From Candidatus Woesearchaeota archaeon (GTDB lineage Archaea > Nanobdellota > Nanobdellia > UBA10117 > JABICX01): a stretch of 38,524 bases of DNA. Below the pieces are notes generated by a model that was given only the letters and a program-made list of their open reading frames with translations, ran no database searches and was not told the DNA's origin. Numbering within the stretch: position 1 is the first letter of the stretch; every line of letters begins with the position of its first letter. The stretch is from contig CAYTAB010000003.1 in the NCBI GenBank assembly GCA_964435825.1, positions 1 to 38,524 of the forward strand, in the 5' to 3' direction. Made by a program: the position numbers and the translations under genes. Below are positions 829 through 14,077 of the stretch, in pieces.

Positions 829-914
829 TATTCCTTTAGCATTCAATTGGTTCAGCTCGGCAATTTATTAAAATATATTTTTATTAAATATTATAAAATT
901 AAGTTACTATTAAT

Positions 915-953
915 TAAGAAAAACTATATTTTTTTTGATTCTGTAGAATATAG
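915..953 (-). terminator. Possible terminator of the giant gene (weak A/U hairpin plus T5)
   Basis: About 33 nt downstream of the giant-ORF stop on the minus strand. Inverted repeat CTATATT/AATATAG (924-930 / 947-953) is followed on the minus strand by TTTTT (923-919). The stem is A/T only, so this is weak. Confidence 0.3.
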
Positions 954-985: not shown

Positions 986-3900
986 TCAACTAGTTAATTC
1001 CATATAAGCACTTAACCAGTCATTTGAACCAGTGTATTTTTGAAGCTTGCTTGGAATTTTAATCTCATAATCATATACTCCATATTTACCTGCCTTGCTG
1101 TCATTGATCACTGTTATGAAAACTAAATCTTGGGTTCCATTGTACTGTGATCCGCCATCACTTGAATCCCAAAGCAAACCAGTTACAAAACTGCTCGTAT
1201 TTGTTGATTTTATAAACGGAACTTGAGTAATAGTTTTGTCATAAACAATAAAAGTTCCTAAATTATCTGGAACATCATCATCATTTGAATCAAATAATCT
1301 CTTTATTGAATCATTAAATGCAGTCATATTCATTGTAGAATCTGCTTCTTCAAAATCATTTGTATCATTTAATGGTTCAAGTTGAGTAAAGTCAATACTT
1401 GAATCATAGTCTGCAAAATAAAGATTTCCCTGCATTATTGTTGGAAGCCATGTTGAGAAGTTAGCTGAATTGCTGTTTGCAAGAATAATTGTTCCATTAG
1501 TATATCCATAAAAGACACCCCATCCTGAAACTGAATAATTAGTATAATTCACATTATTTGTTTCATCATTTTCTGTAAATTCGTGCTTGTCATCTGCATA
1601 TGCTGCAAATTGGTAGGTTCCGGAGCTGGAAACCCAAGAAAAGTTAACTTGAGCTCCAGAACCACCTGCAATACTAACGTTTCTATATTCAGTTTGACTT
1701 AATTCCCAAGCTGAGTCATTCCAGTAAGAAACGTTGAGCATAATAGAAACATTTACAGCATCTGCTGCCTCAGAATTATTTATATGAAAAATAACCAAAA
1801 TATTCTGACCTTCTTCAGGAGTTGAATCATTAAATTCAATTTCAGAAACATAAAAATCATACAAAGTAACTCCAAATTTTCTTGATTCAGTTGCATTTAA
1901 ATTTCCAACACTATCATTGCAGTAGTAAGAGACATTATACTGACCTGCAGTTAGACTATCGTTTGTGTGACTGAACTCTTTAGCAGAATCTTTGTTCATT
2001 GTAATATTTGTTATTCCATTATCTAAACTATACAAACAAGTATCTCCTGCTTCATTTAAAGAAACATTAAAAGTTATGCTTTGAGAGGTGTAATTAACTC
2101 CTTCTGAAGAAGGAACATTAATCACAATCTCAGGTGGAGTTGTATCTATTGTAAATGTATAATTAAAGGTATCAAAAGCGCAGTTTGAAGCTTTGTCACA
2201 AGAATAACAATTCCAGTTATATGTTCCGTCATCAAAATTGTCTACATTGAAAGTATAGTTATAATTGTTATAGTGGCTATAATTTGTTAAATTAATATGC
2301 CATCCATTATTCCAATCACCATACAAACTTACATTTTCAACATAGCTATCATCACTTACTGAACAATTAAAGATTAATGAAGTTGAAGTTGAATTATAAT
2401 AATCCTCAGGTATAATCAAATCAATATTTGGAGATGCAATATCATACCAAACAACCAATTGAATAAAATCTGTTGCAATAACTGTTGAAGTTGAAGAAGC
2501 TGCAGAATAAGTTTTAGCAAGAACTTTTACATATTTAGAATCATTAATCCAATCTTCAAGATTCGCAGTTACTCCAATATATTCAGTTTGTTCACTATTA
2601 TCTGTTGTATATGTTGCAAACTCAACCCACTCCTTGCTTGAATCATTATATAAATAAAGAATAAATCCATCTGTTCCAGAATCAACATCTCCATATCCAG
2701 CCCAAGTTACATTAAGCAATGTAACAGTCTCCTCTGATTCATTAATTTTAAATTCAAATCTAGTAAATGCATAGTTTCCTGAACCTGCAGAGTAATCCTG
2801 ATAAACATTATTATCTGAAGTCAAATCTGAATAAGGGTCATCAATCTCTGTCCAAGTTGTGTTAGTTGTTCCCTCATATGCAGAATTATATGTAGTATCT
2901 GAAAAATCATAAACTGAAATTCCTGAACCAACTGCTAATGTTGCTTGCCCAAAATTAGATTCAGAAGCATTGTAATAAAGAGTAGAATTACTGCTAATAT
3001 TACAGCTTATTGTAAACATTCCAGATTCAGCAGGATTAAAGCTATATTGTGCATAGCCGTCTGAACCTGTTAAATTGCTTCCCATATACACAGAATCATT
3101 GTAAAATAAAACCCAATAATCTGAAACATCCTCTTGCGTAATGTTGTCTTCAACTCTACAATACATTGTAGTTTTATCACCTTCTCCAACACTTGTTGGG
3201 TTTAAATATGCTTCATCAATTTTTGCCCAAGAATAAATTGTAATGTTTCTGTATTCAGATTCATTTGATAAAACAGAAGAATAGTTCAGTGAATAATAAT
3301 ATGAAAACAAAGAATGATTTCCAAGAGAACCAGTTGCATTTAACAGCCAATAAGAAGAACAAACAGTTCCGTTTTTTAACTCAGATAAACAAGAGTCATC
3401 TGAATCATTTCGCGGATTTTCAGATAAAGTATAAAATGGAGTTGCAGAAGTTGAAGTGCTAATTATTCCATTTTCAGAGCTGTTTAATTGTGCAGAAACA
3501 TCACCACACTCACCACCAATACATTGAACCTGAGTTGTAAAATTAAAAACATTGTATTTCTCAACATACTTAACAGAATCTGGATAAATAAGCGTAACAT
3601 TCAACCAGCCCCAGTCAACAAACCAGTTTGTGCTATTCTGTGAACTAATGCTTCTATTATCATAGCAAACTGCAGTTAAATTAAATGTTCCAGAATCATT
3701 TATTATTAAATCATCATTATCAAAAACCCACCAACCAGCTGATTCTGTAAAAGAAGTTCCTGAAATCAATTGTTTTGAATCTTCTATGTTCTCAAGAATA
3801 AAAGTTGCATTTGAAATTGAAAAACTTCCTGCAGTGCAATTAATTCTCATTCTTGTTATTTTTTCTGCCCAATCAAGTTCACTACATTCTTTCCATGAAG

Positions 3901-6900
3901 AAGATTCTTCACATTGAATCTGACCTGAACTTAATGGAGAATAACTTGTAATAGTTAATTTTCTCTGAATAGAAGTATTTCCAGATAAATGACCTATATA
4001 TTGAACAGGTGTAACAAATGCATAAAAACTTCTTTCATCACTTGGATTGCCACTTGAATTTAAAATCCATGGAACTGAACAATTAAGTCCTCCAGCCATA
4101 TTTGTTAAGCAACTAATATCTGTCTTGTTTTGTGGATTAGAATCTAAAGAATAAAATGGAGTTGTAGAAGTTGAAGTGCTAACCAGACCATCTTCACTTG
4201 TATTTAATGTAGCATTAACATCACCGCACTCACCAACAAGACAGCTTACTCGCGCAACAATTTGAGAAGTAAATCCCTGAACAACTGTTGCATTTACTTG
4301 AGGAAATGAAATATTAATTGTTAAAGTACCCCATGGATAATTCCAAGTCTCACTTGTTTCATTATTACCAAAAGGACCATAACAACTTGCACTTATATTC
4401 ATCTGACCTGAATCCCAAAGACTTAAATCATAGTTATTATAAATATACCATCCATTTGTTTTTGTTTTTACAGTGCCATTGAATAATGTCACATAATCTG
4501 GATTATTAAATAAAAATATTGAAGCATTATCTGAAAGACCTGTGCAGTTAACTCTTACTCTAGTCAAACCCCCGCCATATGTAATTGTGGTGCAGTTTTT
4601 CCAAGTTCCGTCATTCTCACATTCTATTTTTGAAACAAAAGCAGGTGCATTAGAGGAAATGTTTTCAGAATTAGAATCTGTAGTTGAGCCTGCTTCATAA
4701 ATTGAGAATGGTGTGACCTTACACTGCCACTCTTCCTGATAAACAGTTTCTTTTGAAACAAAAACATTGTTTTTCTGTCTCAAATATAATTCCCGAACCT
4801 GATCAAAGCTTAGTGCTCGGTCATACCATCTCAGAGAATCAATTGTTCCATTAAAATTACTATCACCATCATCTTCCTCTCCAATATAAATTTCCTGGCT
4901 GTCATTGCTCACAATTCCAGCATCATAATCATCATTATAATTATCTGCAGCCCCATTTACAAAAACAGTCACATTATCTGAAGATAAATAAACAACAACA
5001 ATATGATACCAAGTATCTGGCAACCATTGGTTAGTGTTTGTCTGAACCTCTCCACTATAGGTAGATACACTTATTCTTCCACTATCTGCACTTAATTGTC
5101 TTATTGCAAAATCATTTGGTTTGTCAATATAATAATAATCTACTGTATCTGTTGAATTAACTTCATGTCTCAGTTTAAACCAAAATTCAATTGAAAAATC
5201 ATCTGTAGTATTAATGTTTGAATTAATATACAATCTATCACTATCTCCATTAAACTCAAAAGCTCCAGTTCCATTTAATCCACCTGTAGCATTCCATTCA
5301 ACACCTGTTGGAGTAGCATCATTTCCATATCCTGAATAATCATTTATTGCATCAGCTTCTCCACCTTCAAAATCCATATTAAGCATGTTCATTGGAATAC
5401 TATCAACAAACCAAGCAATTGTTGCAGAAGTAGTTCCGCCACTTGGATGATATTCGCAGCTCAAATTATCATACTCATAATATCCATCAGAAGTTGCATT
5501 TAAAAACACAGAGCTAAATGTTGGAGTCTGCTTTACAAAAATTAAATCAGATACTATATATGGACTGCCTTTTTCATAAAACAAATCTGAAGAATCATTT
5601 ATTTCACAGGAAATATTCAATGAACCACCTGGAGTTGCAGTAATTGTTCTTACTGCCCAGCCACTTGAATTTGTTAAGTTTGTTCCAAGTAATTCTGAAT
5701 TTTTATAAAAAGAAACATTATATCTAAAAATTGAATGATTATCAAACTCATCTCTTATATGACAGCTATAAGTAAACAGGTCATTTAATGAAACATTTGT
5801 ATTATTAAATCCAGATTCATTAATTTCTGAAGAGCTGTAAATGTAAAAATATTTAGAAGGACTAGACTCTGCCCAATTATCTGATGTGTCATTTACTAAA
5901 ATTGCACTAACATTAATCATACCTAAATTGCTAAATTCTGTTAAATCAGATGTATTTAATGTATAATTTGCAGAAGCAGTTGTTCCAGACAATGGTCCAA
6001 TTGAATAATTTAATTGCGTTCCAGTTCCATTATGAGACAAATAAGCATAATCTAATCCAATATTATCTGTCCATTCTGAATATGCTAAAATCTGCCCACC
6101 CCTTTTTATTTGAGCACCATTTGAAACATTAATATTCCAAGTAACAAGTTCTGGAGCAACAATATCTCCATCTAAAATAAAAGTATCATATCCCAAAGGA
6201 GACCAGTAAGAACCTAATGTTGAATAAGCTGTAACAGAATAATTTCCATGTGAACTTCCTGAAGAATTCCAATATAAAGAAAATTCACCATCATAATCTG
6301 TAGTGTTTGAACCTACAAAAGAAATAAATTCATGCTCAGTTGAGATATCTCTTTGCTCTGTTCCATTTGTATAAAAAAAGATTTGGTCAACCTGTGAAGT
6401 GCATACTCTATTTGAGTTTGCAGAAGCAAGAGTATGCTCCCATTTAATTGTATGGCTTCCTTCAGTTAAATAATAAGAATCAAAATTCCAGCCAGTAGAA
6501 GTTTGCGTATCTATTTGCTGGCCATCAACAAGAAACTCAAATGTGCATCCTGTTGTTGAAGTTCTTCCCCAATAAAAAGACAGATATCCTCCTTTTGAAA
6601 GTGTAACTGATTTTGAAAAACTTGCTTTAGTTTCATCACAATGTGTAAAAAAGTTTCCATCGCATGTAAGAGTTGACGAAGTGCTGTAAGATGTTGAATC
6701 TGCTCCACCTGAAGCAGCATCCCAGTCTCCTGAAAGAGGGTCTCCATTTGTTGTTCTATACCAATATGTTGTATTAAAGTTATTGTCTTCAAAATCATCA
6801 TACACAGGTGTTGTAGAATATTTGCTGCTATAATCTGGAGCATCTGAAGTGTTTTTATAGTATATTGCAATTGTATTGTTTCCTGTTAATAATCTATTTA

Positions 6901-9900
6901 ATTTAACAAGAAACTTTGTTGTTGAGGTTTTTGAACCACTAACTAAAAAATGATTTAGCAAATTATTCTCATGGTCAGCAAACCGAACATTTGTGCAGCC
7001 TGTAACAATATCTGATGAAGTAGTATCTAAAGTTAAATTAACAGAAACATCTTCAACAACTTCATCTAAAAGATTCTCAATTACAATTTCTTTTCGTTTT
7101 TCAAATCCAGAATCAAACCACGCGATTGTTGCATTATCTGTATCTAAATTTTTCACAATATATAGCGAAGCATTAGCATCATATAATGGATTATCATATC
7201 CATCATAAACATCTCCATCTATTTTAAAAATTTCATTAGCAGCATATAGTTCGCGTTCAAGAGAAACATTCATATGCATCTCAAAATCAAGCTCAACTGA
7301 AACAACCCTATCTTCACTTTGAGCATTATTTGACTGAAGAGAATCATCTGTGCAGTTTATGCTCCAGGTATAGTTATCTTGAGATAAAGTCTCTGAAAAA
7401 GTTTGATAAACACCTTCCTCAATTTCATTATCTGTATCATAAACCTCATTATTTAAAATCAATTTGCAATTATCAATTCCTGAAAAAACATCATTTACAA
7501 TATATCTAAAAATAACTTCCCCATCTGTATCTTTAGAATCATTTAAAGGTGAAATTAAGGTGATTTCTGGAGGGTCATAATCTGGGCTTACTTTAAGGAA
7601 AAAAGAATCATTAGCATATCCTGTTAAAAGAGAGTCACTTAAATCTGTGCAATTAACATTCCAATAATATTCTCCAACAGCAAGATCATCAACATAAAAG
7701 TAATTATCTCCAATAGAAACTAATGTATCTGTAGTATAAATTGTATCATTTAAAATAAGAGAACAATTTGCAATATCATTTTCATCTGAAACTGAATAAT
7801 TAAAATATAAAACCCCGTCTAAATCCTGTGTTTTATTTTCAGGATAATAAATAGACACAGTTGGAGCATCAAAATCATAATTAACTGTAAAATTCAAAGC
7901 AGTGCTGTTTTTAGAATTCTGATTTGAAGAATCATCAAAACATTCAATAAACCAATAATAATTACCTTCATCAAGCGAAGATATAAAAAAAGTCTGATTT
8001 GTTGCTTCTGAAACACTATCTGAAGTTTGATTATATTCATCTAATAGATAAAGAGAACAATTTTCAATTCCTGAAGCATAATCATCTGCTTGATAAACAA
8101 AGGTAACATTTCCATCTGTATCTTTTGAATTATTCACAGGTGCAAAAAGACTTATCTCTGGGGGCGTGGAATCAGATGTAACTGAAAACTGCCATAACTG
8201 AGACAACTGATGATTTTGGTTTGAAGAATCATCTGTACAGTTAATCTGCCAATAATGTAAACCATTAAACAAACCAGTTTTATAAAATTCAATTTCAACA
8301 TTTTCCTCAATATCTGAAGAAGAATTTTCAATATACTCATCAACAATAAGCTCACAACTGGCAACTCCGCTTAACGAATCATTTACCTTAAAAGTAAAAG
8401 TAACATTTCCATCAGGATCTTCAGAAGAATTTGGAGGTAAAAGTAATTGAATATCTGGCCCTTCTGTATCTGGAACAATTTCAATAGTCCGCGTAGATGA
8501 ATCTCCTCTGTTCTCATTATCTGATTTATCAAAACAACTAACATTCCAAAGATGATTTCCATTGCTCAATCCCCAAACTGTAAAATTCTGAGTTATGCCT
8601 TCCTGAACAGAAGTTATAGTTTTATTAATATTAGAATCAATTGTAATTGAACAATTTTCAATCTCAGATGAAGAATCTGTAACATTAAAATTAAATGTAA
8701 CATTTCCATCTGCATCTTGCGCAGAATCTTCTGGAAATTCCAAATACACCAAAGGACTACTTGAATCAAGAACCTGAAGAACTGAACTCTTTTGTTTCTC
8801 AGAACTTGCTTTTAGATAAAGTGAACTTGAATCACTAATATTGCAAGTTATATTAACAAAGTTTGGAGATGAATAGGTTTTTGAATAATTAGCCCAGCCA
8901 CTTGAATTTGTTAATGAATTTCCAAGATAGCCACTAGAATTATCAAAAAAGTATATTCTGTATCCTGAAACTGCATCTCCAGTATCTCTGTTAATAACTC
9001 TGCATTTTATTTCAGTAGATTGTGTTTCATTGATGGTTGATGGATAGATTTGAATCTTAGAAAGATTTACAAAATCCCATAAATAAAAATAACCAATATT
9101 TGAAGTTGCACCCCACACTTCTTTATCCTGTGCATAAATTGAGTAAACATCAATTCTTCCAAGAACAGAATATTCTGTTCTATTTGAAGTATCAATAGTA
9201 TAATTTGTCCAGCTTCCACTACTTTCATTATAAATTGTGCTAATTGTATAATTTATTTTGCTTCCAGTTCCATCATGCTCTATTTTTGATTGAGAAACAC
9301 CATCTGTATAATTCCAAAATGCATATGCTCTAATTATTGCTCCTCTATCAATATTTGAGCCACTTGAAATATTAAAACCAGAATAATTATATTCTGGAGC
9401 AACTTTTAAATTAATATCCATTCCTGAAAAATCTGTTCTTAAGGAATGTCTTACTGCTCCGAATTTTGGCAAAACTAATTTAGGAACATAATTTTCTTCA
9501 AACAATGATAAAATCCAGTCTTTTGTTCCATAAATAAATTCACTAAAGGTCTTATTACTAATATCAAAACCTTCTGCAGGAACAAAATTATAATAACCGC
9601 CAACAGACACTATCGCAGTCTTTTCATAATTTTCATTAATAAATTCTGGAGCCTTTAACTTAATAGATATATTATCTCCTTTATTAAGAGTCACTCGTTT
9701 TTTATCAAACTTCTTCAAGTCATCAGCAACATTTTCACCATAATCAGTAATTGCAGAATCAATTTCAAGATTATGAATATTAATGTTTTCATCTTCTGAA
9801 TAATCAATATAAGCTGAATCAATCTGATAAAAGCCTGGTGAAGAAACAATTCTAATTTCTTTGTTTTCAGAAAGATTAACTGGAATTAAAAACTCAGTCC

Positions 9901-12900
9901 AATCTTCTAAACCTGCTTTAATCTGTCCCTGAACAACCCATTTTTCTCCATTCCAAGTTTCAACTCTCAGATTAACATTTTTATCAAAAGCAGAATTAAA
10001 CCTTTCACCAAGAAAAGAAGCAGAAACAATGTCTTGCCAGATTTTCCAATTATTATAGCCAACTAAATCCACATAAAAAATCCATGCCTTAGTCATCAGT
10101 CCAGTTTTCATCAAATGCAAAACAAGTTTTCCCTGTTTTGATTCATTTTCAGGAAATTTCAGAAGAATTCCATTTTGCCAAACTTCTTTCTGAATAAACT
10201 CCTTTAAGTTCTCATTAACCCAGGGAACACCATCATCTTCAGAGATTTCTAGCAAGCAAGAAGAATTAAAGAAAATATCTTTACATGAAACTGGCAAAAT
10301 CCTATTTTTAACAGTATGAATATTTCCTGCTAGGTCTGGAATTGCTTCTGTATTTTTTGGATGTTCAACAATTCTTAAATTAAAATTATTTGTATATGAA
10401 ACTTCATCAAGACGTTCACCTAAAAGAATATTATAATATCCCTCTTCTAAAACAAGATCATTTAATCTCTCATAACTAATTGCTTCAGATGCGCGTATAA
10501 CTGAAAACGGATAGCCTTCATGTTCATAAACATACTCTGAACCATTCCAAGAAAAAACAAAAGGACATGAAACACCAGATTCATCTTCATCTTCATCATG
10601 TTCTGCAGTAACCATCATAACAACATAATAATCTCCTGAATCATTCCAAACAAAATCATCTGCATTTGTAGAAATAGAGCCTGAACGAACATTATCTGAA
10701 GTGCCTTGTCCATTAGAAGTAGAATAAACACTTACCCATTCTGAACCAGATTCATTCCAGATATAAATATCCTGAGCAAGAGCAGATTTATCACTTCCAC
10801 TTGACTCATCATCAGTATAATAACCTTCCCATGTCCAGGTAAAATTATTCACAACATGCGGAGCATCAACTTTAAAGAAAAACATCTGAGAATTATTTTC
10901 ACTATCTGAAGTTGCAAGTGAAGTATCCCATCGTGAGTTATCACTTAAATTTATAGCTGCATAATCTGCAGCAAGTGCATTTGCCCCGCAATCACTTGGA
11001 TCAGAAGGTATGTCTCCTCCTTTTTCACATGCATAATGCCCATCTGAAGCATATTGTGAAAAATTAAATGAGCTTGTTCTAAGTGGGTCTAATGCAAACA
11101 ACCACGTTCGATTTTCAACAAATATCCTATTAAACAAACCCTTTTTATAAATAATTCTTGCATTTCCAAGCTCATATAAATAAGGTGAAATAAACGGTGC
11201 TTGCGCAGTGTATTTAAACTCACTTGACTCATTTTTATATTTCCAAGTAATTGTTTTTATATCTCCCATCTCATTAACAACTCCGCCATATGAATTAATG
11301 ACTTTAAACTCAACTGGCAGAATTTCAACAACTTCTTTTATTTCTAAATTACTAAATGAAGTGATTTTAAACTCATTAGTAAAAGGTCCTCTCCAAGGAT
11401 CAATTGTAACTGGAACTTTTCGAATTATGTCAAAATCATAATCTGAAACAACATTAAAAAAACTCTCAATATTTGTTTTTACACCATCAGCATATGCTTT
11501 AACTAAAAGTTTATGTTCGCCAATCACTTTTGTATCAAAACTTGCATCATACACACCTGTCTCTTCTGAAGCAGATACTTTAATATTTGAATAAACTTTT
11601 CCAGATGGGTCAATAATTGTAAGTTCTACTTTAGCACCATCAATACAAAATCCGTTTTTATCTAAAACAACAATTTTCAGATTAGCAGTTTCATTTGGTC
11701 TATAGAGTGGCTTTTCAGTATTAACACTCACCAAACCCCAGGAAAACCAAAGAACTTCTTTGCTTAATGTTCCATTTTTATTTTCATAATACGAAGTAAC
11801 TTTGTATATACCTGGCTTTATTCTGCGCGAGTCTTTTAAAACTACCTCAACTTCCCGAGCTGAAGAGAAAATTGAAAAGCCAGCTCTATGTTTTTTTATT
11901 TCAAAATCTTGTCCTTCAATTAATCTAAGAACCTGAGTTCCTTTTTGAGAACTATCTTCTAAAAAACCATTTTCCTTAAACTGACGATATTCTAAAAGAG
12001 TTTTTGAATCAAAATCAGAAGACAATAATGAAAAAGAAGCAAAATCTCCTGATAAAGCAGGTTGTGTCTGAAGTGGTTTATCATTTGTCTCTGAATGTTC
12101 TACAAATTCAACATCAACATATTTAGCATTACCTAAAGTGATTTTTGGTGTTTGTTGCAATGAAAAGGCATTATCAAAATCAAGATTAAAATCTCTTGAA
12201 AAATGATATAAATTTCCTTTAGCAATAATCCCAAATTCAATATTTAAGAACTTATTGTCTTTTTGGTTTAAATTAATTATAAGTTTATTAGAATCAGAAT
12301 TTAATATTGCATCTGAATCAATTCTTTTTATATAAACAATCTTATCAAGTGTATGTGCTCTTATTAAAATTGAGCTTACTTTACTTTTCTCAAATTCTTG
12401 TTTGTCAATATATATTCTATCTGAAGTTACATCAACAATTCCAGGAAATTCTGAAGAAACATAATGCAAATCTGAAAAATCAACTTCATCAATATTTAAG
12501 TTTGGTAAATCTATAAATGAAATGTTTTGATAAGAAGCAGAAATAATTGGTTTTTCTAAGCTTTCATTATCAAATATGCAAAATTCATTATACAAATCTG
12601 AATTTAAAAAAAGATTTTTATCAAAAAGCAAATTAAAATAAACTGAAGATTGGTTTTTAAGATCTACTTTCATAAGTCCAATTTCTTGTGAAAGACCTGC
12701 AGAAGAAAGATAAATGCAGTCTGGATAAAAATTAAGATTAGTATCTGATGGATTCATTTTAAAATTAAAAGAATTTAAACTAAATTCAGAATCTGAAACA
12801 TAGTATCCTTTTTCAATCAAGATTTCTAAAAAAGCTTTTTTGTCAATTTGTATTCGCTTATTAACTGAAAAAGTATATTTTGGAAGTTTTTTAATCATAT

Positions 12901-13975
12901 CTGCACTAATAGAAAAATTATAAATGATTTTATCTGAAAATCTGCTATATTTTGCACTTAAATTAGTGTTTAAAAGAAATTGATTTGTTAAATTATAAAA
13001 ATCAAAATAATGCGAACTATCAACTACAGGTGTTGAAAAATAAAACTTATTTGAATAATTTTGAGTTGCAACAAAATCAAATTCAATTGTTTTTGAAAAA
13101 ACAGAATCTCCATTACATGTAACAATCATCTTATGATGTCCTGTTGAAAGATATGGATAATAATTGACCCAGTAATCCTGTTCCTTATCCAAGAGAGTTG
13201 AAAAATCACTATCATCAAAATTAAAAATACAATATTCAAAATCATAATAAGGTTTTACTACAACTTCAACACCTCCAGTGTATTTTGAAGATTGAATTGG
13301 AGAGATTACATCAAAACCTTCAGAATAAAGCATAAAATCTTTTTGATTTAAAAAAATCCAATTACCATTTCCAGATAAAACTAAAGAATCTTTTCCCTCT
13401 AAAGAATAACACTGCAATATTGAATCTTCTCTGCATATAAAATCATAGTTTTGCTTAAAAAAAATCTCAAAACTGCTTACATCAGAATCAATATAAAAAC
13501 CTTTTTCATTATTTGAAAAATTAAGATAACTAACTTGTTTTAGAAAAAAAGAAGCTTTATCTTGCAGCAAAAATAAGTCGCGAGCATTCCCATTTTCCAA
13601 AAGAAAAGTATCTGTAACTGAAAAAGAATCTGCACTCATCTCTTGCCCATTAAAAAAAGAAACACCATCATCAAAAAACTTAACAAAATTTGTAGAATAG
13701 TCAAACTCTTTTTCAGAATAACAATTTGGTGTTGAAAGCGATACTGAATAATGAACATTTTTCAATGGAAAAAAGTCAAAAGAGTCTGTTGAAGAATATG
13801 TTTTGCAATTATAATCAGTGCATATTTTAACATCATATATTGAAGGAAGGTAATTATAACCGATTTGAGCATCAAAAGAACATTCTCTCAAATCAAAAGA
13901 AAACACAATTGGCAGAGCTAAACTTAAAAGGATAATACTAAAAAGAGTTCTAAATATGTTAAATGTTCTATTCAT
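986..13975 (-). CDS. Giant (4,329 aa) secreted mosaic surface/adhesin-like protein
   Basis: Uninterrupted 12,990-nt ORF in AT-rich DNA, which is very unlikely by chance. ATG start. N-terminal signal-like segment MNRTFNIFRTLFSIILLSLALPIVFSF. Recognisable modules are an MG/alpha-2-macroglobulin-like beta-sandwich, seven Cys-pair Ig-like repeats, and DUF2341-like, LamG-like and CARDB-like domains. No C-terminal TM or sorting signal is visible. Confidence 0.9.
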   Translation of the reverse strand: MNRTFNIFRTLFSIILLSLALPIVFSFDLRECSFDAQIGYNYLPSIYDVKICTDYNCKTYSSTDSFDFFPLKNVHYSVSLSTPNCYSEKEFDYSTNFVKFFDDGVSFFNGQEMSADSFSVTDTFLLENGNARDLFLLQDKASFFLKQVSYLNFSNNEKGFYIDSDVSSFEIFFKQNYDFICREDSILQCYSLEGKDSLVLSGNGNWIFLNQKDFMLYSEGFDVISPIQSSKYTGGVEVVVKPYYDFEYCIFNFDDSDFSTLLDKEQDYWVNYYPYLSTGHHKMIVTCNGDSVFSKTIEFDFVATQNYSNKFYFSTPVVDSSHYFDFYNLTNQFLLNTNLSAKYSRFSDKIIYNFSISADMIKKLPKYTFSVNKRIQIDKKAFLEILIEKGYYVSDSEFSLNSFNFKMNPSDTNLNFYPDCIYLSSAGLSQEIGLMKVDLKNQSSVYFNLLFDKNLFLNSDLYNEFCIFDNESLEKPIISASYQNISFIDLPNLNIDEVDFSDLHYVSSEFPGIVDVTSDRIYIDKQEFEKSKVSSILIRAHTLDKIVYIKRIDSDAILNSDSNKLIINLNQKDNKFLNIEFGIIAKGNLYHFSRDFNLDFDNAFSLQQTPKITLGNAKYVDVEFVEHSETNDKPLQTQPALSGDFASFSLLSSDFDSKTLLEYRQFKENGFLEDSSQKGTQVLRLIEGQDFEIKKHRAGFSIFSSAREVEVVLKDSRRIKPGIYKVTSYYENKNGTLSKEVLWFSWGLVSVNTEKPLYRPNETANLKIVVLDKNGFCIDGAKVELTIIDPSGKVYSNIKVSASEETGVYDASFDTKVIGEHKLLVKAYADGVKTNIESFFNVVSDYDFDIIRKVPVTIDPWRGPFTNEFKITSFSNLEIKEVVEILPVEFKVINSYGGVVNEMGDIKTITWKYKNESSEFKYTAQAPFISPYLYELGNARIIYKKGLFNRIFVENRTWLFALDPLRTSSFNFSQYASDGHYACEKGGDIPSDPSDCGANALAADYAAINLSDNSRWDTSLATSDSENNSQMFFFKVDAPHVVNNFTWTWEGYYTDDESSGSDKSALAQDIYIWNESGSEWVSVYSTSNGQGTSDNVRSGSISTNADDFVWNDSGDYYVVMMVTAEHDEDEDESGVSCPFVFSWNGSEYVYEHEGYPFSVIRASEAISYERLNDLVLEEGYYNILLGERLDEVSYTNNFNLRIVEHPKNTEAIPDLAGNIHTVKNRILPVSCKDIFFNSSCLLEISEDDGVPWVNENLKEFIQKEVWQNGILLKFPENESKQGKLVLHLMKTGLMTKAWIFYVDLVGYNNWKIWQDIVSASFLGERFNSAFDKNVNLRVETWNGEKWVVQGQIKAGLEDWTEFLIPVNLSENKEIRIVSSPGFYQIDSAYIDYSEDENINIHNLEIDSAITDYGENVADDLKKFDKKRVTLNKGDNISIKLKAPEFINENYEKTAIVSVGGYYNFVPAEGFDISNKTFSEFIYGTKDWILSLFEENYVPKLVLPKFGAVRHSLRTDFSGMDINLKVAPEYNYSGFNISSGSNIDRGAIIRAYAFWNYTDGVSQSKIEHDGTGSKINYTISTIYNESSGSWTNYTIDTSNRTEYSVLGRIDVYSIYAQDKEVWGATSNIGYFYLWDFVNLSKIQIYPSTINETQSTEIKCRVINRDTGDAVSGYRIYFFDNSSGYLGNSLTNSSGWANYSKTYSSPNFVNITCNISDSSSLYLKASSEKQKSSVLQVLDSSSPLVYLEFPEDSAQDADGNVTFNFNVTDSSSEIENCSITIDSNINKTITSVQEGITQNFTVWGLSNGNHLWNVSCFDKSDNENRGDSSTRTIEIVPDTEGPDIQLLLPPNSSEDPDGNVTFTFKVNDSLSGVASCELIVDEYIENSSSDIEENVEIEFYKTGLFNGLHYWQINCTDDSSNQNHQLSQLWQFSVTSDSTPPEISLFAPVNNSKDTDGNVTFVYQADDYASGIENCSLYLLDEYNQTSDSVSEATNQTFFISSLDEGNYYWFIECFDDSSNQNSKNSTALNFTVNYDFDAPTVSIYYPENKTQDLDGVLYFNYSVSDENDIANCSLILNDTIYTTDTLVSIGDNYFYVDDLAVGEYYWNVNCTDLSDSLLTGYANDSFFLKVSPDYDPPEITLISPLNDSKDTDGEVIFRYIVNDVFSGIDNCKLILNNEVYDTDNEIEEGVYQTFSETLSQDNYTWSINCTDDSLQSNNAQSEDRVVSVELDFEMHMNVSLERELYAANEIFKIDGDVYDGYDNPLYDANASLYIVKNLDTDNATIAWFDSGFEKRKEIVIENLLDEVVEDVSVNLTLDTTSSDIVTGCTNVRFADHENNLLNHFLVSGSKTSTTKFLVKLNRLLTGNNTIAIYYKNTSDAPDYSSKYSTTPVYDDFEDNNFNTTYWYRTTNGDPLSGDWDAASGGADSTSYSTSSTLTCDGNFFTHCDETKASFSKSVTLSKGGYLSFYWGRTSTTGCTFEFLVDGQQIDTQTSTGWNFDSYYLTEGSHTIKWEHTLASANSNRVCTSQVDQIFFYTNGTEQRDISTEHEFISFVGSNTTDYDGEFSLYWNSSGSSHGNYSVTAYSTLGSYWSPLGYDTFILDGDIVAPELVTWNINVSNGAQIKRGGQILAYSEWTDNIGLDYAYLSHNGTGTQLNYSIGPLSGTTASANYTLNTSDLTEFSNLGMINVSAILVNDTSDNWAESSPSKYFYIYSSSEINESGFNNTNVSLNDLFTYSCHIRDEFDNHSIFRYNVSFYKNSELLGTNLTNSSGWAVRTITATPGGSLNISCEINDSSDLFYEKGSPYIVSDLIFVKQTPTFSSVFLNATSDGYYEYDNLSCEYHPSGGTTSATIAWFVDSIPMNMLNMDFEGGEADAINDYSGYGNDATPTGVEWNATGGLNGTGAFEFNGDSDRLYINSNINTTDDFSIEFWFKLRHEVNSTDTVDYYYIDKPNDFAIRQLSADSGRISVSTYSGEVQTNTNQWLPDTWYHIVVVYLSSDNVTVFVNGAADNYNDDYDAGIVSNDSQEIYIGEEDDGDSNFNGTIDSLRWYDRALSFDQVRELYLRQKNNVFVSKETVYQEEWQCKVTPFSIYEAGSTTDSNSENISSNAPAFVSKIECENDGTWKNCTTITYGGGLTRVRVNCTGLSDNASIFLFNNPDYVTLFNGTVKTKTNGWYIYNNYDLSLWDSGQMNISASCYGPFGNNETSETWNYPWGTLTINISFPQVNATVVQGFTSQIVARVSCLVGECGDVNATLNTSEDGLVSTSTSTTPFYSLDSNPQNKTDISCLTNMAGGLNCSVPWILNSSGNPSDERSFYAFVTPVQYIGHLSGNTSIQRKLTITSYSPLSSGQIQCEESSSWKECSELDWAEKITRMRINCTAGSFSISNATFILENIEDSKQLISGTSFTESAGWWVFDNDDLIINDSGTFNLTAVCYDNRSISSQNSTNWFVDWGWLNVTLIYPDSVKYVEKYNVFNFTTQVQCIGGECGDVSAQLNSSENGIISTSTSATPFYTLSENPRNDSDDSCLSELKNGTVCSSYWLLNATGSLGNHSLFSYYYSLNYSSVLSNESEYRNITIYSWAKIDEAYLNPTSVGEGDKTTMYCRVEDNITQEDVSDYWVLFYNDSVYMGSNLTGSDGYAQYSFNPAESGMFTISCNISSNSTLYYNASESNFGQATLAVGSGISVYDFSDTTYNSAYEGTTNTTWTEIDDPYSDLTSDNNVYQDYSAGSGNYAFTRFEFKINESEETVTLLNVTWAGYGDVDSGTDGFILYLYNDSSKEWVEFATYTTDNSEQTEYIGVTANLEDWINDSKYVKVLAKTYSAASSTSTVIATDFIQLVVWYDIASPNIDLIIPEDYYNSTSTSLIFNCSVSDDSYVENVSLYGDWNNGWHINLTNYSHYNNYNYTFNVDNFDDGTYNWNCYSCDKASNCAFDTFNYTFTIDTTPPEIVINVPSSEGVNYTSQSITFNVSLNEAGDTCLYSLDNGITNITMNKDSAKEFSHTNDSLTAGQYNVSYYCNDSVGNLNATESRKFGVTLYDFYVSEIEFNDSTPEEGQNILVIFHINNSEAADAVNVSIMLNVSYWNDSAWELSQTEYRNVSIAGGSGAQVNFSWVSSSGTYQFAAYADDKHEFTENDETNNVNYTNYSVSGWGVFYGYTNGTIILANSNSANFSTWLPTIMQGNLYFADYDSSIDFTQLEPLNDTNDFEEADSTMNMTAFNDSIKRLFDSNDDDVPDNLGTFIVYDKTITQVPFIKSTNTSSFVTGLLWDSSDGGSQYNGTQDLVFITVINDSKAGKYGVYDYEIKIPSKLQKYTGSNDWLSAYMELTS
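1535..1860 (-). other. CARDB-like domain
   Basis: YDFYVSEIEFNDSTPEEGQNILVIFHINNSEAADAVNVSIMLNV......RNVSIAGGSGAQVNFSWVSSSGTYQFAAYADDKHEFTENDETNNVNYTNYSV. The terminal E.NE.NN motif and overall pattern are typical of CARDB. Confidence 0.65.
1865..2450 (-). repeat. Two further Ig-like repeats of the same type as 7290-8770
   Basis: SPNIDLIIPEDYYNSTSTSLIFNCSVSDD..VENVSL...GTYNWNCYSCDKASN and TTPPEIVINVPSSEGVNYTSQSITFNVSLNE..DTCLYSLD...GQYNVSYYCNDSVGN. Confidence 0.6.
3235..4650 (-). repeat. Tandem duplication of a ~235-aa Cys-rich module (copy A 3950-4650, copy B 3235-3950)
   Basis: IECENDGTWKNC...TRVRVNCTG...CLVGECGDVNATLNTSEDGLVSTSTSTTPFYSLDSNPQN parallels IQCEESSSWKEC...TRMRINCTAG...CIGGECGDVSAQLNSSENGIISTSTSATPFYTLSENPRN. 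4151-4182 matches 3431-3462 at 31/32 nt, an offset of 720 nt. Confidence 0.8.
4790..5380 (-). other. LamG / concanavalin-A-like jelly-roll domain
   Basis: DYSGYGNDATPTGVEWNATGGLNGTGAFEFNGDSDRLYI...DDFSIEFWFK...WYHIVVVY...VTVFVNGA......IYIGEE....NFNGTIDSLRWYDRALSFDQVRELY is the characteristic Laminin_G_3-type pattern. Confidence 0.7.
5530..6100 (-). repeat. Copy 2 of the dispersed ~190-aa module (see 8770-9345)
   Basis: See copy 1. Protein-level collinearity plus the identical 23-nt stretch at 5655-5677. Confidence 0.7.
6850..7130 (-). other. DUF2341-like domain
   Basis: AWFDSGFEKRKEIVIENLLDEVVEDVSVNLTLDTTS...CTNVRFADHENNLLNHFLV...TKFLVKLNRLLTGNNTIAIYYKN matches the W...+R..I.I.N......+...V.L.L / +F.d..g..L.y..e / iWVKv...IY+YYGN pattern of DUF2341. 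Confidence 0.55.
7290..8770 (-). repeat. Five tandem ~98-aa Cys-pair Ig-like repeats (coding, period ~300 nt)
   Basis: Each unit has PP(E/D)I.L..P.N.S.D.DGNVTF.(F/Y)...D..SGI.NC.L......, then a second conserved Cys in W.(V/I)(S/N/E)C.D.S.N. The DGNVTF-type anchors lie near 8720, 8420, 8115, 7825 and 7525. Confidence 0.8.
8770..9345 (-). repeat. Copy 1 of a dispersed ~190-aa two-domain module (second copy 5530-6100, partial third copy about 2935-3235)
   Basis: IIRAYAFWNYTDG...HDGTGSKINYT...NLTNSSGWANYS...NITCNISDSSSLY parallels QILAYSEWTDNIG...HNGTGTQLNYS...NLTNSSGWAVRT...NISCEINDSSDLF. An identical 23-mer GCCCAGCCACTTGAATTTGTTAA occurs at 8892-8914 and 5655-5677. Confidence 0.7.
11483..11722 (-). 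other. MG (alpha-2-macroglobulin/Big-like) beta-sandwich module
   Basis: EKPLYRPNETANLKIVVLDKNGFCIDGAKVELTIIDPSGKVY...GVYDASFDT...GEHKLLVKAYADG follows the KP.YRPGE...v.v.d...G.p pattern typical of MG domains. Confidence 0.5.
12745..13290 (-). other. N-terminal module of the giant protein that is paralogous to ORF 1-828
   Basis: Shared blocks: V[ED][IV]V[IV]KP...F[ED]YC[IM]F.FD; TL[LM]D.E...W; G.H..[IT][VI][TS]C; [IL]I[YF]N[FY]S; RI.[IL]DK; SDSE..L. No family recognised. Confidence 0.6.
13895..13975 (-). other. Signal peptide / N-terminal anchor of the giant protein
   Basis: A basic N-terminus (MNRTFNIFR) is followed by a hydrophobic stretch (TLFSIILLSLALPIVFSF). Confidence 0.6.
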
Positions 13976-14077
13976 ATGATCAGCTCGGGAATTAATTGAA
14001 GTATGAAATAAAGTATACGTCAGATAATATAAAATTACGCTGTAATTAAAAAGTGAAAATATTATTACTGTATGATC

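What the first reader, a model, noticed from the sequence alone, without database searches (positions are those of the whole stretch)
986..13975. 13-kb single ORF encoding a 4,329-aa mosaic, anchor-less secreted surface protein
Seen: an unbroken 12,990-nt frame in AT-rich DNA covers one third of the window. It has an N-terminal signal-like segment. It has no C-terminal TM, PGF-CTERM-like or other sorting signal; the protein ends ...GSNDWLSAYMELTS. It carries MG-like, Ig-like (x7), DUF2341-like, LamG-like and CARDB-like modules. The first ~700 aa (F/N/S/D/Y-rich) and several long inter-module stretches match nothing I recognise. Established: these module types occur in prokaryotic adhesins and S-layer-associated proteins. 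Inference: in a small-genome, possibly episymbiotic archaeon, a gene this costly is a prime candidate for a host-attachment or cell-surface interaction machine. Its particular domain order is probably undescribed.
Basis: partly seen in the sequence, partly recalled or inferred. Interest (0 to 1): 0.75.

Follow-up and report, generated by a model that had tools for sequence, protein, structure and literature searches.

The report
Giant archaeal surface protein, new C-terminal domain
This is a real 4,329-residue secreted, sugar-coated surface protein of a tiny Pacearchaeota-like (DPANN) archaeon; such proteins are already known as a class, but it is probably not "anchor-less", because it ends in a conserved, unannotated domain shared by over a hundred surface proteins of these archaea.

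Summary
Window 986-13975 on the minus strand is one intact 4,329-aa ORF. It has a single N-terminal hydrophobic segment and no C-terminal TM or known sorting motif. Pfam finds MG2, DUF2341, LamG, Big_3_3 and CARDB above threshold, and there are seven copies of a 99-aa Ig-like repeat.

The host is a Pacearchaeota-like DPANN archaeon. Residues 31-745 have no homolog among 1.84 billion proteins. The only relative is a paralog that starts 140 nt downstream.

The label "anchor-less" is doubtful. The last 181 aa form a domain (CTD) with a confident predicted fold that has no PDB or viral neighbour and no Pfam or NCBIfam model. It is strictly C-terminal in more than 120 DPANN proteins of about 310 to over 3,500 aa. 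Small secreted proteins of about 250 aa that consist only of a CTD-like body often lie in tandem after such giants.

N-glycosylation sequons are 2.5-fold enriched in residues 1401-4329 but not in the orphan N-terminus.

Best reading: a glycosylated modular stalk, docked to or co-assembled on the cell surface through the CTD, with a fast-evolving bare N-terminal head that binds the target. Adhesion and anchoring are inferred, not shown.

The protein is a new variant of a known kind (giant DPANN LamG/Ig surface proteins).

The parts
986..13975 (-). Complete giant ORF: 4,329 aa, about 488 kDa, pI 4.2
13886..13975 (-). aa 1-30, Sec-type signal-like segment (MNRTFNIFR + an 18-aa hydrophobic core + VFS|F). 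It is the only hydrophobic stretch in the protein. Cleavage is inferred, not tested.
   Evidence: N-termini of homologous giants look the same.
11741..13885 (-). aa 31-745, orphan N-terminal 'head'. No homolog anywhere except the adjacent paralog. No sequon enrichment (10 observed against 8.8 expected). Lowest GC of the gene (26-28%).
12578..13315 (-). aa 221-466, the sub-region conserved with the downstream paralog (35% identity, E 2e-34). Its first ~80 aa may be a degenerate Ig-like repeat (hhalign E 0.002, probability 13%, inconclusive).
10976..11740 (-). aa 746-1000, MG2-containing module. It is shared with P0005 and with 10 of the 80 CTD loci, usually near the N-terminus of their giant proteins.
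9401..10975 (-). aa 1001-1525, second region without detectable homologs. Residues ~985-1135 are weakly related to aa 3690-3845 (E 2e-5).
8771..9403 (-). aa 1525-1735, two-domain module A, copy 1. Copy 2 is aa 2606-2814. Its Big_1-like half recurs at aa 3580-3682.
   Evidence: (Big_1, 32.2 bits, below the cutoff)
7286..8761 (-). aa 1739-2230, five tandem 99-aa Ig-like repeats, 30-45% identical, each with two conserved Cys
6758..6997 (-). aa 2327-2406, DUF2341 domain
5534..6160 (-). aa 2606-2814, module A, copy 2
4796..5248 (-). aa 2910-3060, Laminin_G_3 (concanavalin-A-like lectin fold) domain
   Evidence: 75.1 bits
3203..4717 (-). aa 3087-3591, two copies of a ~235-aa Cys-containing module (35-57% identical). 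It is also repeated in P0002, P0003, L125, L108, L079 and L081.
2441..2908 (-). aa 3690-3845, unassigned ~150-aa domain, weakly related to aa ~985-1135
1865..2434 (-). aa 3848-4037, Ig-like repeats 6 and 7 (Big_3_3 / Big_13). This is the start of the position-conserved C-terminal cassette.
1547..1858 (-). aa 4040-4143, CARDB domain. The model matches the PF1109 CARDB structure 3idu (Foldseek E 6e-6).
989..1531 (-). aa 4149-4329, C-terminal domain (CTD). It ends at the stop codon. Several Asp/Glu positions are invariant or nearly invariant, and it carries NST, TG-LWD, YDYE and FYxEL motifs. AlphaFold2 gives pLDDT 91.6 and pTM 0.87. No PDB or BFVD structural neighbour, no Pfam or NCBIfam model.
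1..845 (-). Downstream paralogous gene on the same strand, cut by the end of the contig. Signal-like N-terminus, then homology to aa 221-466 of the giant. The likely start is TTG at ~845 (an ATG lies at ~826).
13976..14045 (-). Upstream leader of the giant gene: a TATA-like AATTTTATATTAT box and the motif CCGAGCTGA 4 nt before the ATG. Both are duplicated upstream of the paralog (window ~846-925).

Best explanation
The gene encodes a giant (about 488 kDa, acidic), Sec-exported, heavily N-glycosylated modular fibre on the surface of a Pacearchaeota-like DPANN archaeon. I read it as polar, with three parts.

1. The conserved C-terminal cassette (two Ig repeats, CARDB, and the 181-aa CTD) is the cell-proximal end. 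It holds the protein on the cell non-covalently. It does so either by docking to the envelope or by co-assembling with other proteins that carry the same CTD fold. These include small secreted proteins of about 250 aa that are little more than a CTD-like body and are often encoded in tandem after such giants. The closest analogy is a tip adhesin that joins a fibre through a subunit-like domain (FimH-like logic).

2. The middle two thirds (MG2, Ig-like x7, Big_1-like, DUF2341, LamG and Cys-containing modules) form a glycan-coated spacer and lectin stalk, built from a toolkit that related archaea shuffle freely.

3. The N-terminal ~745-1,500 aa are lineage-specific, fast-evolving and not sequon-enriched. 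They form the distal head that contacts the target, which could be a host cell or another surface.

What is shown: the ORF, the modules, the signal-like segment, the sequon pattern, the taxonomy, the CTD family with its strict C-terminal position and its gene clustering, and the absence of known anchors.

What is inferred: signal cleavage, glycosylation, the orientation of the protein, CTD-mediated anchoring or co-assembly, and adhesion to a host.
For: Extracellular location:
- There is a single N-terminal hydrophobic segment and no other.
- There are 175 N-x-S/T sequons against 74.8 in shuffles (z 13.8).
- All identifiable modules are extracellular adhesion or lectin types.

DPANN host: PolB is 59% identical to a Ca. 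Pacearchaeota MAG. The block TtuA-PolB-MetAP-GH5-CDC48 is syntenic at 42-75% identity. The giant gene sits exactly at the synteny break.

The CTD as the constant end:
- aa 3847-4327 align to the extreme C-termini of P0002, P0003, P0004 and P0006.
- A CTD profile finds 129 proteins from Woese-, Pace- and Nanoarchaeota MAGs.
- It finds 124 domains in 80 metagenome loci. Full matches end 0-5 aa before the stop codon.
- Carriers range from ~310 aa (signal + CARDB + CTD) through ~520-920 aa to more than 3,500 aa.

Co-encoded CTD-like small proteins:
- L081 runs 3155 -> 737 -> 292 -> 266 -> 247 -> 316 -> 167 -> 247 -> 225 aa; of these genes the 3155, 737, 266 and both 247-aa products carry the domain.
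- L089, L101, L105 and L082 are similar.
- 7 of 14 giants with at least 5 kb of downstream sequence have further CTD genes there.
- The small proteins align with the CTD over its whole length (W-x-x-Y/F-x-G, YDF/YE, FYVEL). Proteins that consist only of the domain argue that it is a structural or assembly unit rather than a mere export tag.

CTD structure: the model is confident (pLDDT 91.6, pTM 0.87). Seven conserved acidic positions (D41, D59, D64, D74, D122, D154, E156) would fit Ca2+ sites.

The variable end:
- aa 31-745 hit nothing in 1.84e9 proteins and nothing in the 80 loci.
- Other giants share N-termini with each other but not with this one.
- Sequon enrichment is z 14.4 for aa 1401-4329 but z 0.4 for aa 1-745.

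Literature: strain-specific LamG/CARDB/Ig giant proteins of DPANN archaea have been proposed as host-contact proteins (PMC10266531, PMC5498576). Laminin_G_3 is the commonest domain in archaeal huge proteins (PMC11573180).
Against: - No experiment or expression data exist for this protein or for any CTD protein.
- The orientation (C-terminus proximal) rests only on the argument that the conserved end is the self-interacting end.
- The CTD has no structural neighbour, so its fold gives no functional hint. In particular it shows no Foldseek similarity to anything in the PDB at the threshold used, which should include any deposited archaeal donor-strand filament subunits.
- Half of the giants with enough flanking sequence have no second CTD gene nearby.
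- The window itself contains only one CTD, because the contig ends 985 nt after the gene. The cluster context here is therefore extrapolated from other loci.
- No candidate envelope receptor or assembly machinery was recognised in any locus.
Confidence: 0.5

Rival explanations
1. Reverse polarity. The N-terminal hydrophobic segment is an uncleaved signal-anchor that holds the protein in the membrane. The conserved CARDB+CTD cassette is then the distal, ligand-binding (lectin- or Ca2+-dependent) tip. The small CTD-only proteins would be soluble or competing binders of the same ligand.
For: - There is only one hydrophobic segment, at the N-terminus.
- The CTD has a conserved acidic cluster and an exposed terminal position.
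- CARDB is named for cell adhesion, and the solved CARDB domain binds metal ions (3idu).
- Bacterial RTX adhesins carry their ligand-binding domains near the C-terminus (my own knowledge).
Against: - The segment has the n-h-c layout of a cleavable Sec signal, with small residues at -3/-1 (VFS|F; read from the sequence).
- A ligand-binding tip would be expected to vary. Here the C-terminal end is the conserved one and the N-terminal end is the orphan one.
- The un-glycosylated region is N-terminal.
- Tandem arrays of CTD-only proteins look more like structural subunits than lectins.
Confidence: 0.15
2. The CTD is a cargo tag for a dedicated, still unrecognised DPANN export, sorting or attachment pathway. 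It would work like the T9SS C-terminal domain or PGF-CTERM/archaeosortase, and might be cleaved or covalently modified during attachment.
For: - It is strictly C-terminal, 0-5 aa from the stop codon, on many otherwise unrelated cargo proteins of all sizes.
- Cargo genes are clustered.
- It is restricted to one lineage and absent from viral contigs.
Against: - At 181 aa it is much larger than known tags.
- Proteins of ~250 aa consist of little else, so they would be a tag without cargo.
- No conserved candidate sorting enzyme or channel was found next to CTD genes.
- All carriers already have Sec-type signals.
Confidence: 0.13
3. One reading: a truly anchor-less protein released into the medium or matrix, forming an extracellular network or biofilm matrix (like halomucin or a matrix protein) rather than a cell-bound adhesin.
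For: - No TM segment, lipobox at the signal, C-terminal PGF or LPXTG motif.
- The protein is acidic and glycan-rich.
- The CTD-like small proteins could form an extracellular lattice. Archaeal matrix and filament proteins that polymerise without machinery exist (bioRxiv 10.1101/2024.12.30.630787).
Against: - The conserved terminal cassette implies a specific interaction partner.
- The polarity in conservation and glycosylation fits a tethered fibre better than a bulk matrix polymer.
- This rival overlaps with the best explanation if the lattice is cell-associated.
Confidence: 0.12
4. Artefact: a chimeric or collapsed assembly, or a decaying pseudogene read as one ORF.
For: - The contig is a metagenome-type contig that ends inside the next paralog.
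- The gene contains internal repeats.
Against: - The frame is intact over 4,330 codons in 30% GC DNA.
- In-frame homology runs from aa 221 to 4329.
- DNA repeats are at most 86% identical over at most 126 nt.
- Related giants of 2,300-3,500 aa with the same cassette exist on many independent contigs.
Confidence: 0.03

Closest known systems
Giant LamG/Ig/CARDB/PKD surface proteins of DPANN archaea (Mia14 'ARMAN', Woesearchaeota, Nanohaloarchaeota; PMC5498576, PMC10266531) and the archaeal 'huge proteins' dominated by Laminin_G_3 and Big_13/Big_3_3 (PMC11573180)
   Same: A very large, strain-specific, Sec-secreted mosaic of LamG, Ig-like and CARDB modules in a reduced-genome archaeon. It occupies more than 1% of a small genome, sits in a variable genome region and is proposed to mediate cell-cell contact. 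Real sequence relatives of this protein (P0002-P0011, 2,417-7,155 aa) are annotated only as 'large repetitive protein', 'LamG domain-containing' or 'DNRLRE domain-containing'.
   Different: - No member of this class has a demonstrated function.
- This protein has a unique 745-aa N-terminal region and its own module order.
- The papers I searched do not mention the conserved CARDB+CTD terminal cassette or the CTD gene clusters.
SPEARE / giant membrane-anchored proteins of Nanohaloarchaeota (Hamm et al. 2019; SVXNc_0300, 9,409 aa; PMC10266531)
   Same: Giant DPANN ectodomain made of Ig-like arrays behind a Sec signal, proposed to bind the host.
   Different: Those proteins have C-terminal transmembrane helices and a cytosolic VirB4/TraG-like ATPase domain with an adjacent VirB4-like ATPase gene. 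Here there is no second hydrophobic segment, no Walker A motif and no ATPase hit. The neighbouring genes are housekeeping genes. No sequence similarity was detected.
Tip adhesins that join a fibre through a subunit-like domain (FimH/PapG of chaperone-usher pili), and archaeal chaperone-free donor-strand filaments (cannulae CanA, bundling pili; bioRxiv 10.1101/2024.12.30.630787, PMC12337348)
   Same: Functional analogy only. Several co-encoded secreted proteins share one beta-rich domain. One of them is a large adhesin-like protein carrying that domain at its C-terminus. Conserved acidic residues are compatible with Ca2+-dependent assembly. The small paralogs have an N-terminal extension with a beta-strand-like pattern before the domain.
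   Different: There is no sequence or Foldseek similarity to any solved pilin or filament subunit. Polymerisation, donor strands and Ca2+ binding are all untested. The protein is not a member of those families.
C-terminal sorting domains: T9SS CTD, PGF-CTERM/archaeosortase, LPXTG/sortase
   Same: A strictly C-terminal shared module on many different secreted cargo proteins of one lineage.
   Different: The CTD is 181 aa, globular and confidently folded, with no hydrophobic tail or motif of those systems. Stand-alone CTD-only proteins exist. No sortase-like partner was seen.

Membership tests
Pfam domain families MG2, DUF2341, Laminin_G_3, Big_3_3, CARDB | hmmscan score above the curated gathering threshold | tested here: met
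   40.7 against 32.8; 39.4 against 23.4; 75.1 against 27.6; 30.1 against 27; 28.5 against 22.7. The CARDB fold was also confirmed by Foldseek to 3idu.
Pfam Big_1 (bacterial Ig-like group 1) | score above the gathering threshold | tested here: inconclusive
   32.2 bits against a cutoff of 34.9. Three internal copies are related to each other.
Alpha-2-macroglobulin / thioester-containing proteins | Array of MG domains plus a thioester CxEQ motif and an A2M/TED domain | tested here: not met
   There is a single MG2 hit only, no CxEQ motif, and no A2M or TED Pfam hit.
SPEARE-type giant proteins of Nanohaloarchaeota | C-terminal TM helices plus a cytosolic VirB4/TraG-like ATPase domain, with an adjacent VirB4-like ATPase gene | tested here: not met
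   No hydrophobic segment beyond aa 30. No Walker A motif. No ATPase Pfam hit in the protein. The neighbours are TtuA, a small membrane protein and a paralog.
PGF-CTERM / archaeosortase substrates | C-terminal PGF motif followed by a TM helix and a basic tail | tested here: not met
   The C-terminus is ...KYTGSNDWLSAYMELTS. The only PGF is internal, at aa 1380. There is no C-terminal hydrophobic stretch.
Sortase (LPXTG) substrates and RTX/T1SS adhesins | LPXTG followed by a TM segment; or GGxGxD nonapeptide repeats with a C-terminal T1SS signal | tested here: not met
   No match to either motif and no relevant Pfam hit.
DPANN CARDB+CTD family (defined here, unnamed) | CTD profile match that ends within ~5 aa of the stop codon | tested here: met
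   The window protein scores 240 bits (E 2e-73) against profile A2, but it was one of the nine sequences that profile was built from, so this match is partly circular; the independent support is its 34-48% identity to the eight other CTD sequences of A2. The match ends at aa 4328 of 4329. The same holds for the full-length matches among the 124 domains found in 80 loci.
DPANN CARDB+CTD family (defined here, unnamed) | CARDB domain directly upstream of the CTD, and a Sec-type signal at the N-terminus | tested here: met
   CARDB at aa 4040-4143 and CTD at aa 4149-4329. The same layout occurs in stand-alone ~320-aa members and in the 737-aa L081 protein.
DPANN CARDB+CTD family (defined here, unnamed) | Tandem cluster with further CTD or CTD-like genes | tested here: inconclusive
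   The window ends 985 nt after the gene. Only the N-terminus of the next gene is visible, and no second CTD is present in the window. Elsewhere 7 of 14 giants have such neighbours.
Archaeal donor-strand filaments (cannulae CanA, bundling pili, threads) and chaperone-usher pilins | Subunit fold similar to solved members | tested here: not met
   Foldseek of the CTD model against the PDB: best E 0.16, TM at most 0.21, no filament subunit among the hits. Profile search against PDB sequences: nothing.
Archaeal donor-strand filaments (cannulae CanA, bundling pili, threads) and chaperone-usher pilins | Incomplete fold completed by a neighbour's N-terminal strand; polymer formation | not testable with these tools
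   No multimer prediction and no model coordinates were available. There is only a suggestive N-terminal extension in the small paralogs.
N-glycosylated archaeal surface proteins | Excess of N-x-S/T sequons over the expectation from composition | tested here: met
   175 observed against 74.8 +/- 7.3 in shuffles. The excess is confined to aa ~1400-4329. Actual glycosylation was not tested.

The most novel reading that the evidence does not exclude
The CTD defines a previously undescribed, DPANN-specific (Woese-/Pace-/Nanoarchaeota) surface-display system with a new protein fold. Small CTD-only secreted proteins, encoded in tandem, would polymerise into a cell-associated filament or lattice without dedicated machinery. 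Proteins of any size, up to giants of more than 4,000 aa like this one, would be plugged into it through their C-terminal CTD. This would answer how these membrane-anchor-less giant adhesins stay on ultrasmall episymbiotic cells.
Probability: 0.27. Interest if true: 0.75.

Novelty: new variant of a known kind. Interest (0 to 1): 0.5.

Why it matters
DPANN archaea make up a large share of archaeal diversity and are thought to live attached to hosts. The molecules that make the contact are uncharacterised, especially in the uncultured Woese- and Pacearchaeota.

This locus supplies a concrete, polar model: a constant C-terminal docking cassette, a glycan-coated stalk of shuffled modules, and an orphan bare head. 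It also supplies a defined, confidently folded 181-aa domain that neither Pfam nor NCBIfam models. That domain can be expressed, solved and used as a handle. Antibodies, pull-downs and genome mining with it could find the whole surface-display repertoire and its envelope partner.

If the co-assembly reading is right, it would add a new kind of archaeal surface structure. If it is wrong, the protein remains one more member of the known class of giant DPANN surface proteins.

Tried and rejected
- NCBIfam on the whole protein and on the orphan pieces, the CTD and the small paralogs returned nothing.
- Pfam on ten sub-segments at E<=1 gave no hits for aa 1-745, 1150-1525, 3690-3850 or 4140-4329.
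- PDB sequence searches with the whole protein, the CTD profile, aa 1130-1525 and aa 31-745 returned nothing meaningful.
- Foldseek of the CARDB+CTD model explained only the CARDB half. I therefore re-modelled the CTD alone. That model has no neighbour in the PDB or BFVD.
- I looked for a conserved partner gene. The small 2-TM protein upstream (14078-14395, LiaF-TM-like) has no counterpart upstream of P0006 or other giants. The HerA/DUF87 ATPase near P0003 is not seen in the other loci whose gene content was examined (the window and L001-L007). Pfam on the L081 cluster found no machinery.
- I tested whether the giant gene is syntenic in the nearest genome. It is not. L007 keeps TtuA-PolB-MetAP-GH5-CDC48 but has unrelated genes where the giant lies.
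- I tested the hypothesis that aa 221-300 is a degenerate copy of the 99-aa Ig repeat. hhalign gave E 0.002 but a probability of 13%, so this stays inconclusive.
- A viral origin was tested and rejected: no CTD in IMG/VR contigs.
- tRNA and Rfam scans of the window were empty.
- PF27237, precomputed for this protein and for P0005, is not in the local Pfam copy. It probably lies in the shared aa 747-970 region, but I could not identify it.


Full report
**1. Observation**

The window contains one ORF on the minus strand, 986..13975. It starts with ATG, encodes 4,329 aa and covers 33.7% of the window. The DNA is 26-33% GC. No start codon lies upstream within the stop-to-stop frame, which begins at 14077.

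The protein has a calculated mass of 488 kDa and a pI of 4.2. It is rich in S, N, D and T. A Kyte-Doolittle scan finds a single hydrophobic stretch, aa 5-30. Nothing comparable lies at the C-terminus. There is no C-terminal PGF (only an internal PGF tripeptide at aa 1380), LPXTG, PEP, RTX, CxEQ or Walker A motif.

Pfam hits above threshold are MG2 (aa 751-816), DUF2341 (aa 2327-2406), Laminin_G_3 (aa 2910-3060), Big_3_3 (aa 3903-3956) and CARDB (aa 4040-4143). Big_1 is just below its cutoff.

Internal comparison shows four repeat systems:
- a duplicated two-domain module (aa 1525-1735 and 2606-2814), whose Big_1-like half recurs at aa 3580-3682
- a duplicated ~235-aa Cys-containing module (aa 3087-3591)
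- two weakly related ~150-aa domains (aa ~985-1135 and 3690-3845)

At the DNA level the repeats are at most 86% identical over at most 126 nt. A collapsed assembly is therefore unlikely, although reads could not be checked.

**2. Organism and setting**

The rest of the window encodes archaeal housekeeping proteins: TtuA-like, an archaeal histone, PolB, MetAP, a GH5-like protein, CDC48, RadB-like, topoisomerase I, SerRS, RtcA and LonB. No tRNA or Rfam hit was found.

PolB is 59% identical to that of a Candidatus Pacearchaeota MAG (L007). The next-best hits are Woesearchaeota at 36-39%. L007 keeps the block TtuA-PolB-MetAP-GH5-CDC48 at 42-75% identity, but it has unrelated genes where the giant gene lies. 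The gene therefore sits at a synteny break, in a variable region of a DPANN genome.

**3. Relatives**

A word-indexed search of 5.8 billion proteins with the full protein gives only ten relatives. All are giant (2,417-7,155 aa), archaeal or unassigned, and named at best 'large repetitive protein', 'LamG domain-containing' or 'DNRLRE domain-containing'. The best single alignment covers at most 11% of the query.

The similarity is modular:
- Ig repeats and Cys-containing modules occur in different numbers and orders.
- The MG2 module (aa ~700-1000) is shared with P0005 and with 10 other loci.
- Only one piece keeps its position. Residues 3847-4327 align to the extreme C-terminus of P0002, P0003, P0004 and P0006.

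**4. The orphan N-terminus and its paralog**

An exhaustive HMMER search of aa 31-745 against 1.84 billion representative proteins returned only the protein itself. Pfam, NCBIfam and PDB sequence searches gave nothing. tblastn of the whole protein against 80 related loci shows no hit for aa 1-~685 or aa ~1100-1500. Five other complete giants share N-terminal regions with one another but not with this protein.

The only relative is in the window itself. About 140 nt downstream, on the same strand, a second gene starts and runs off the contig end (window ~845 to 1). Its signal-like N-terminus is followed by 256 aa that are 35% identical (E 2e-34) to aa 221-466 of the giant. Both genes are preceded by the same TATA-like box and the same CCGAGCTGA motif near the start codon. 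They are therefore duplicated transcription units.

**5. The C-terminal domain**

Residues 4149-4329 (the CTD) have no Pfam or NCBIfam model and no PDB sequence relative. A profile of nine CTDs finds 129 proteins. The sources that name an organism call almost all of them Nanoarchaeota, Woesearchaeota or Pacearchaeota; two partial hits carry bacterial MAG names. Many are complete ~305-335-aa proteins made of signal + CARDB + CTD.

A scan of metagenome contigs returned 80 loci with 124 CTD domains. In full-length matches the domain ends 0-5 aa before the stop codon. Carriers fall into size classes: ~250-280 aa, ~305-335, ~520-760 (with ~620-635 very common), ~900, and 2,300 to more than 3,500 aa.

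CTD genes are often tandem:
- L081 runs 3155 -> 737 -> 292 -> 266 -> 247 -> 316 -> 167 -> 247 -> 225 aa on one strand.
- L089 runs >=3507 -> 731 -> 282 -> 262 -> 258 -> 262 -> 342 -> 138 -> 244 -> 247 aa.
- Of 14 giants with at least 5 kb of downstream sequence, 7 have further CTD genes there.

The ~250-aa proteins consist of a signal, a ~50-aa extension and a distant CTD-like body. They share the motifs W-x-x-[YF]-x-G, YD[FY][EQ] and [FY]Y[VI]EL at the very end. No recognisable machinery lies in these clusters. No CTD occurs in viral contigs.

**6. Structure**

AlphaFold2 with a 77-sequence alignment models CARDB+CTD at pLDDT 91.3 and the CTD alone at pLDDT 91.6, pTM 0.87. The CARDB half matches the Pyrococcus PF1109 CARDB structure (3idu, E 6e-6).

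The CTD is a mixed beta-sandwich with three short helices. It has no significant neighbour among 350,542 PDB chains (best E 0.16, TM at most 0.21) or in the viral BFVD library.

Invariant or nearly invariant positions include seven acidic residues (D41, D59, D64, D74, D122, D154 and E156 in CTD numbering), an N-S-T sequon and T-G-x-L-W-D. Metal binding is a reasonable guess, but it could not be checked without model coordinates.

**7. Polarity in glycosylation potential**

The protein has 175 N-x-S/T sequons, against 74.8 +/- 7.3 in composition-preserving shuffles. The excess lies entirely in aa 1401-4329 (152 against 60.1, z 14.4). Residues 1-745 show none (10 against 8.8, z 0.4). The conserved toolkit part thus looks glycan-coated, and the orphan head looks bare.

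**8. Interpretation**

Shown by tool results:
- a real, intact, mosaic gene for an extracellular protein in a Pacearchaeota-like archaeon
- no known anchor
- a conserved, strictly C-terminal, unannotated domain family with a confident fold that has no detectable PDB or BFVD neighbour
- frequent clustering with CTD-only small proteins
- an orphan N-terminal region that is not sequon-enriched

Inferred:
- The signal is cleaved.
- The sequons are used.
- The constant C-terminal cassette is the cell-proximal docking or co-assembly end.
- The variable head is the distal binding end.
- The target is a host cell.

The argument for this orientation runs as follows. A module shared across many proteins and lineages should interact with a conserved self component, whereas target-binding parts diverge. 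Proteins consisting only of the CTD-like body make a pure export tag less likely and a structural subunit more likely.

The rivals remain open: reverse polarity with an N-terminal signal-anchor, a cleavable sorting tag, or a released matrix protein. An assembly artefact is unlikely.

**9. Comparison with known systems**

As a kind, this is the familiar class of giant, strain-specific LamG/Ig/CARDB surface proteins that several DPANN genome papers propose as host-contact proteins (PMC5498576, PMC10266531). Surveys of huge proteins find this class to be the dominant archaeal architecture, with function 'not understood' (PMC11573180).

It is not a SPEARE-type protein, because it has no C-terminal TM segment and no VirB4-like ATPase. 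It is also not an alpha-2-macroglobulin, a PGF-CTERM or LPXTG substrate, or an RTX adhesin. Defining features of each were tested and not met.

The co-assembly idea borrows its logic from FimH-type tip adhesins and from chaperone-free archaeal filaments (bioRxiv 10.1101/2024.12.30.630787). There is no sequence or fold similarity to those, so this is an analogy and not membership.

**10. Verdict**

Its interpretation is partly supported. 'Anchor-less' is probably wrong in spirit, and the general kind is already known.

What is new is the CARDB+CTD terminal cassette and its gene clusters, the unique head, and the polar sequon pattern. I found none of these in the curated libraries I searched, and full-text searches of the held papers for related terms turned up no description of them.

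Interest is moderate (0.5): the case is ordinary as 'another giant DPANN surface protein', but it offers a concrete, testable handle on how such proteins are held on the cell.

Noticed in passing
window 1-845 (-): A second, paralogous gene starts ~140 nt after the giant gene and runs off the contig end. It has a signal-like N-terminus, then 35% identity to aa 221-466 of the giant. The contig probably broke inside a paralog array.
   Followed up: partly
window 13976-14045 (-) and 846-925 (-): Both paralogous genes carry the same upstream elements: a TATA-like AATTTTATA(T/A)TAT box and an exact CCGAGCTGA 4-6 nt before the start codon. The latter resembles GAGGTGATC, the archaeal anti-16S (Shine-Dalgarno-like) sequence. 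The 9-mer is not found before other genes in the window.
   Followed up: partly
window 14078-14395 (-): A 105-aa protein with a basic N-terminus and two TM helices (weak LiaF-TM hits) lies directly upstream of the giant gene on the same strand. No counterpart was seen next to the other giants examined. Whether it is linked to the giant is unknown.
   Followed up: partly
window 986-13975 (-), aa 1-745 against aa 1401-4329: The gene shows a sharp internal contrast. The orphan head has lower GC (26-28% against 30-33%), twice the K+R content and no sequon excess. This would fit a different age or a different selective regime from the rest of the gene.
   Followed up: partly
L081 10561-19151, L089 10555-20065, L101, L105, L082: Conserved same-strand clusters follow giant CTD genes. 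They comprise a ~730-aa CARDB-CTD protein, several ~250-aa CTD-like secreted paralogs with two conserved Cys, other secreted proteins of 225-340 aa with no family, and a small HTH-like protein. None has a Pfam or NCBIfam model.
   Followed up: partly
proteins P0079-P0093 (stand-alone CARDB-CTD, ~309-327 aa): One subgroup of stand-alone CARDB-CTD proteins extends past the usual end with a short acidic, Cys-containing tail (...FFLDMDSICS / DLDSSCLS). This could be a site for disulfide or lipid attachment.
   Followed up: no
L003 6760-7512 and 14878-15642; L005 10322-10675: Toxin and mobile-element genes (AbiEii, an rve integrase, PemK-like) are interspersed with CTD genes in some loci. This suggests that these surface-protein regions are mobile or variable islands.
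   Followed up: no
locus of P0003 (JGI 3300075153, no DNA held): A 1,123-aa HerA/DUF87-type ATPase with CarboxypepD_reg-like domains and six small unknown genes lie just upstream of the 4,627-aa giant P0003. This could be a secretion or assembly ATPase, but it is not seen in the other loci whose gene content was examined (the window and L001-L007).
   Followed up: no
L001/L002 1-7101 (GCA_009992215.1): Another giant gene (4,875 aa, faint Big_13 / Por_Secre_tail hits) lies upstream of P0006 on the same strand, and it does not end in a CTD. Tandem giant genes with different termini therefore coexist.
   Followed up: no
window 29871-31097 (+) against 28706-29989 (-): The listed TTG start of the RtcA-like ORF overlaps the SerRS gene by ~120 nt, and the RTC domain begins only at aa 77. 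The true start is probably further downstream.
   Followed up: no
window 19743-20870 (+): A GH5 (cellulase-family) gene sits within the conserved PolB-MetAP-CDC48 block and is also present in the Pacearchaeota relative L007 (42% identity). This is a conserved glycoside hydrolase in a reduced genome.
   Followed up: no
window 31289-32749 (-), 23295-23807 (-), 24293-24706 (-): Three ORFs (486, 170 and 137 aa) have no Pfam family.
   Followed up: no
P0001 and P0005: The precomputed annotation lists PF27237.1 for this protein and for P0005. That accession is absent from the local Pfam copy. It probably covers part of the shared aa 747-970 region next to MG2.
   Followed up: no
P0019, P0020, P0115: A few CTD fragments carry odd source names ('Bacteroidota bacterium', 'Desulfosalsimonadaceae bacterium', 'ribosome recycling factor, partial [Nanoarchaeota]'). 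These are most likely binning contamination or mis-annotation rather than true bacterial occurrences.
   Followed up: no
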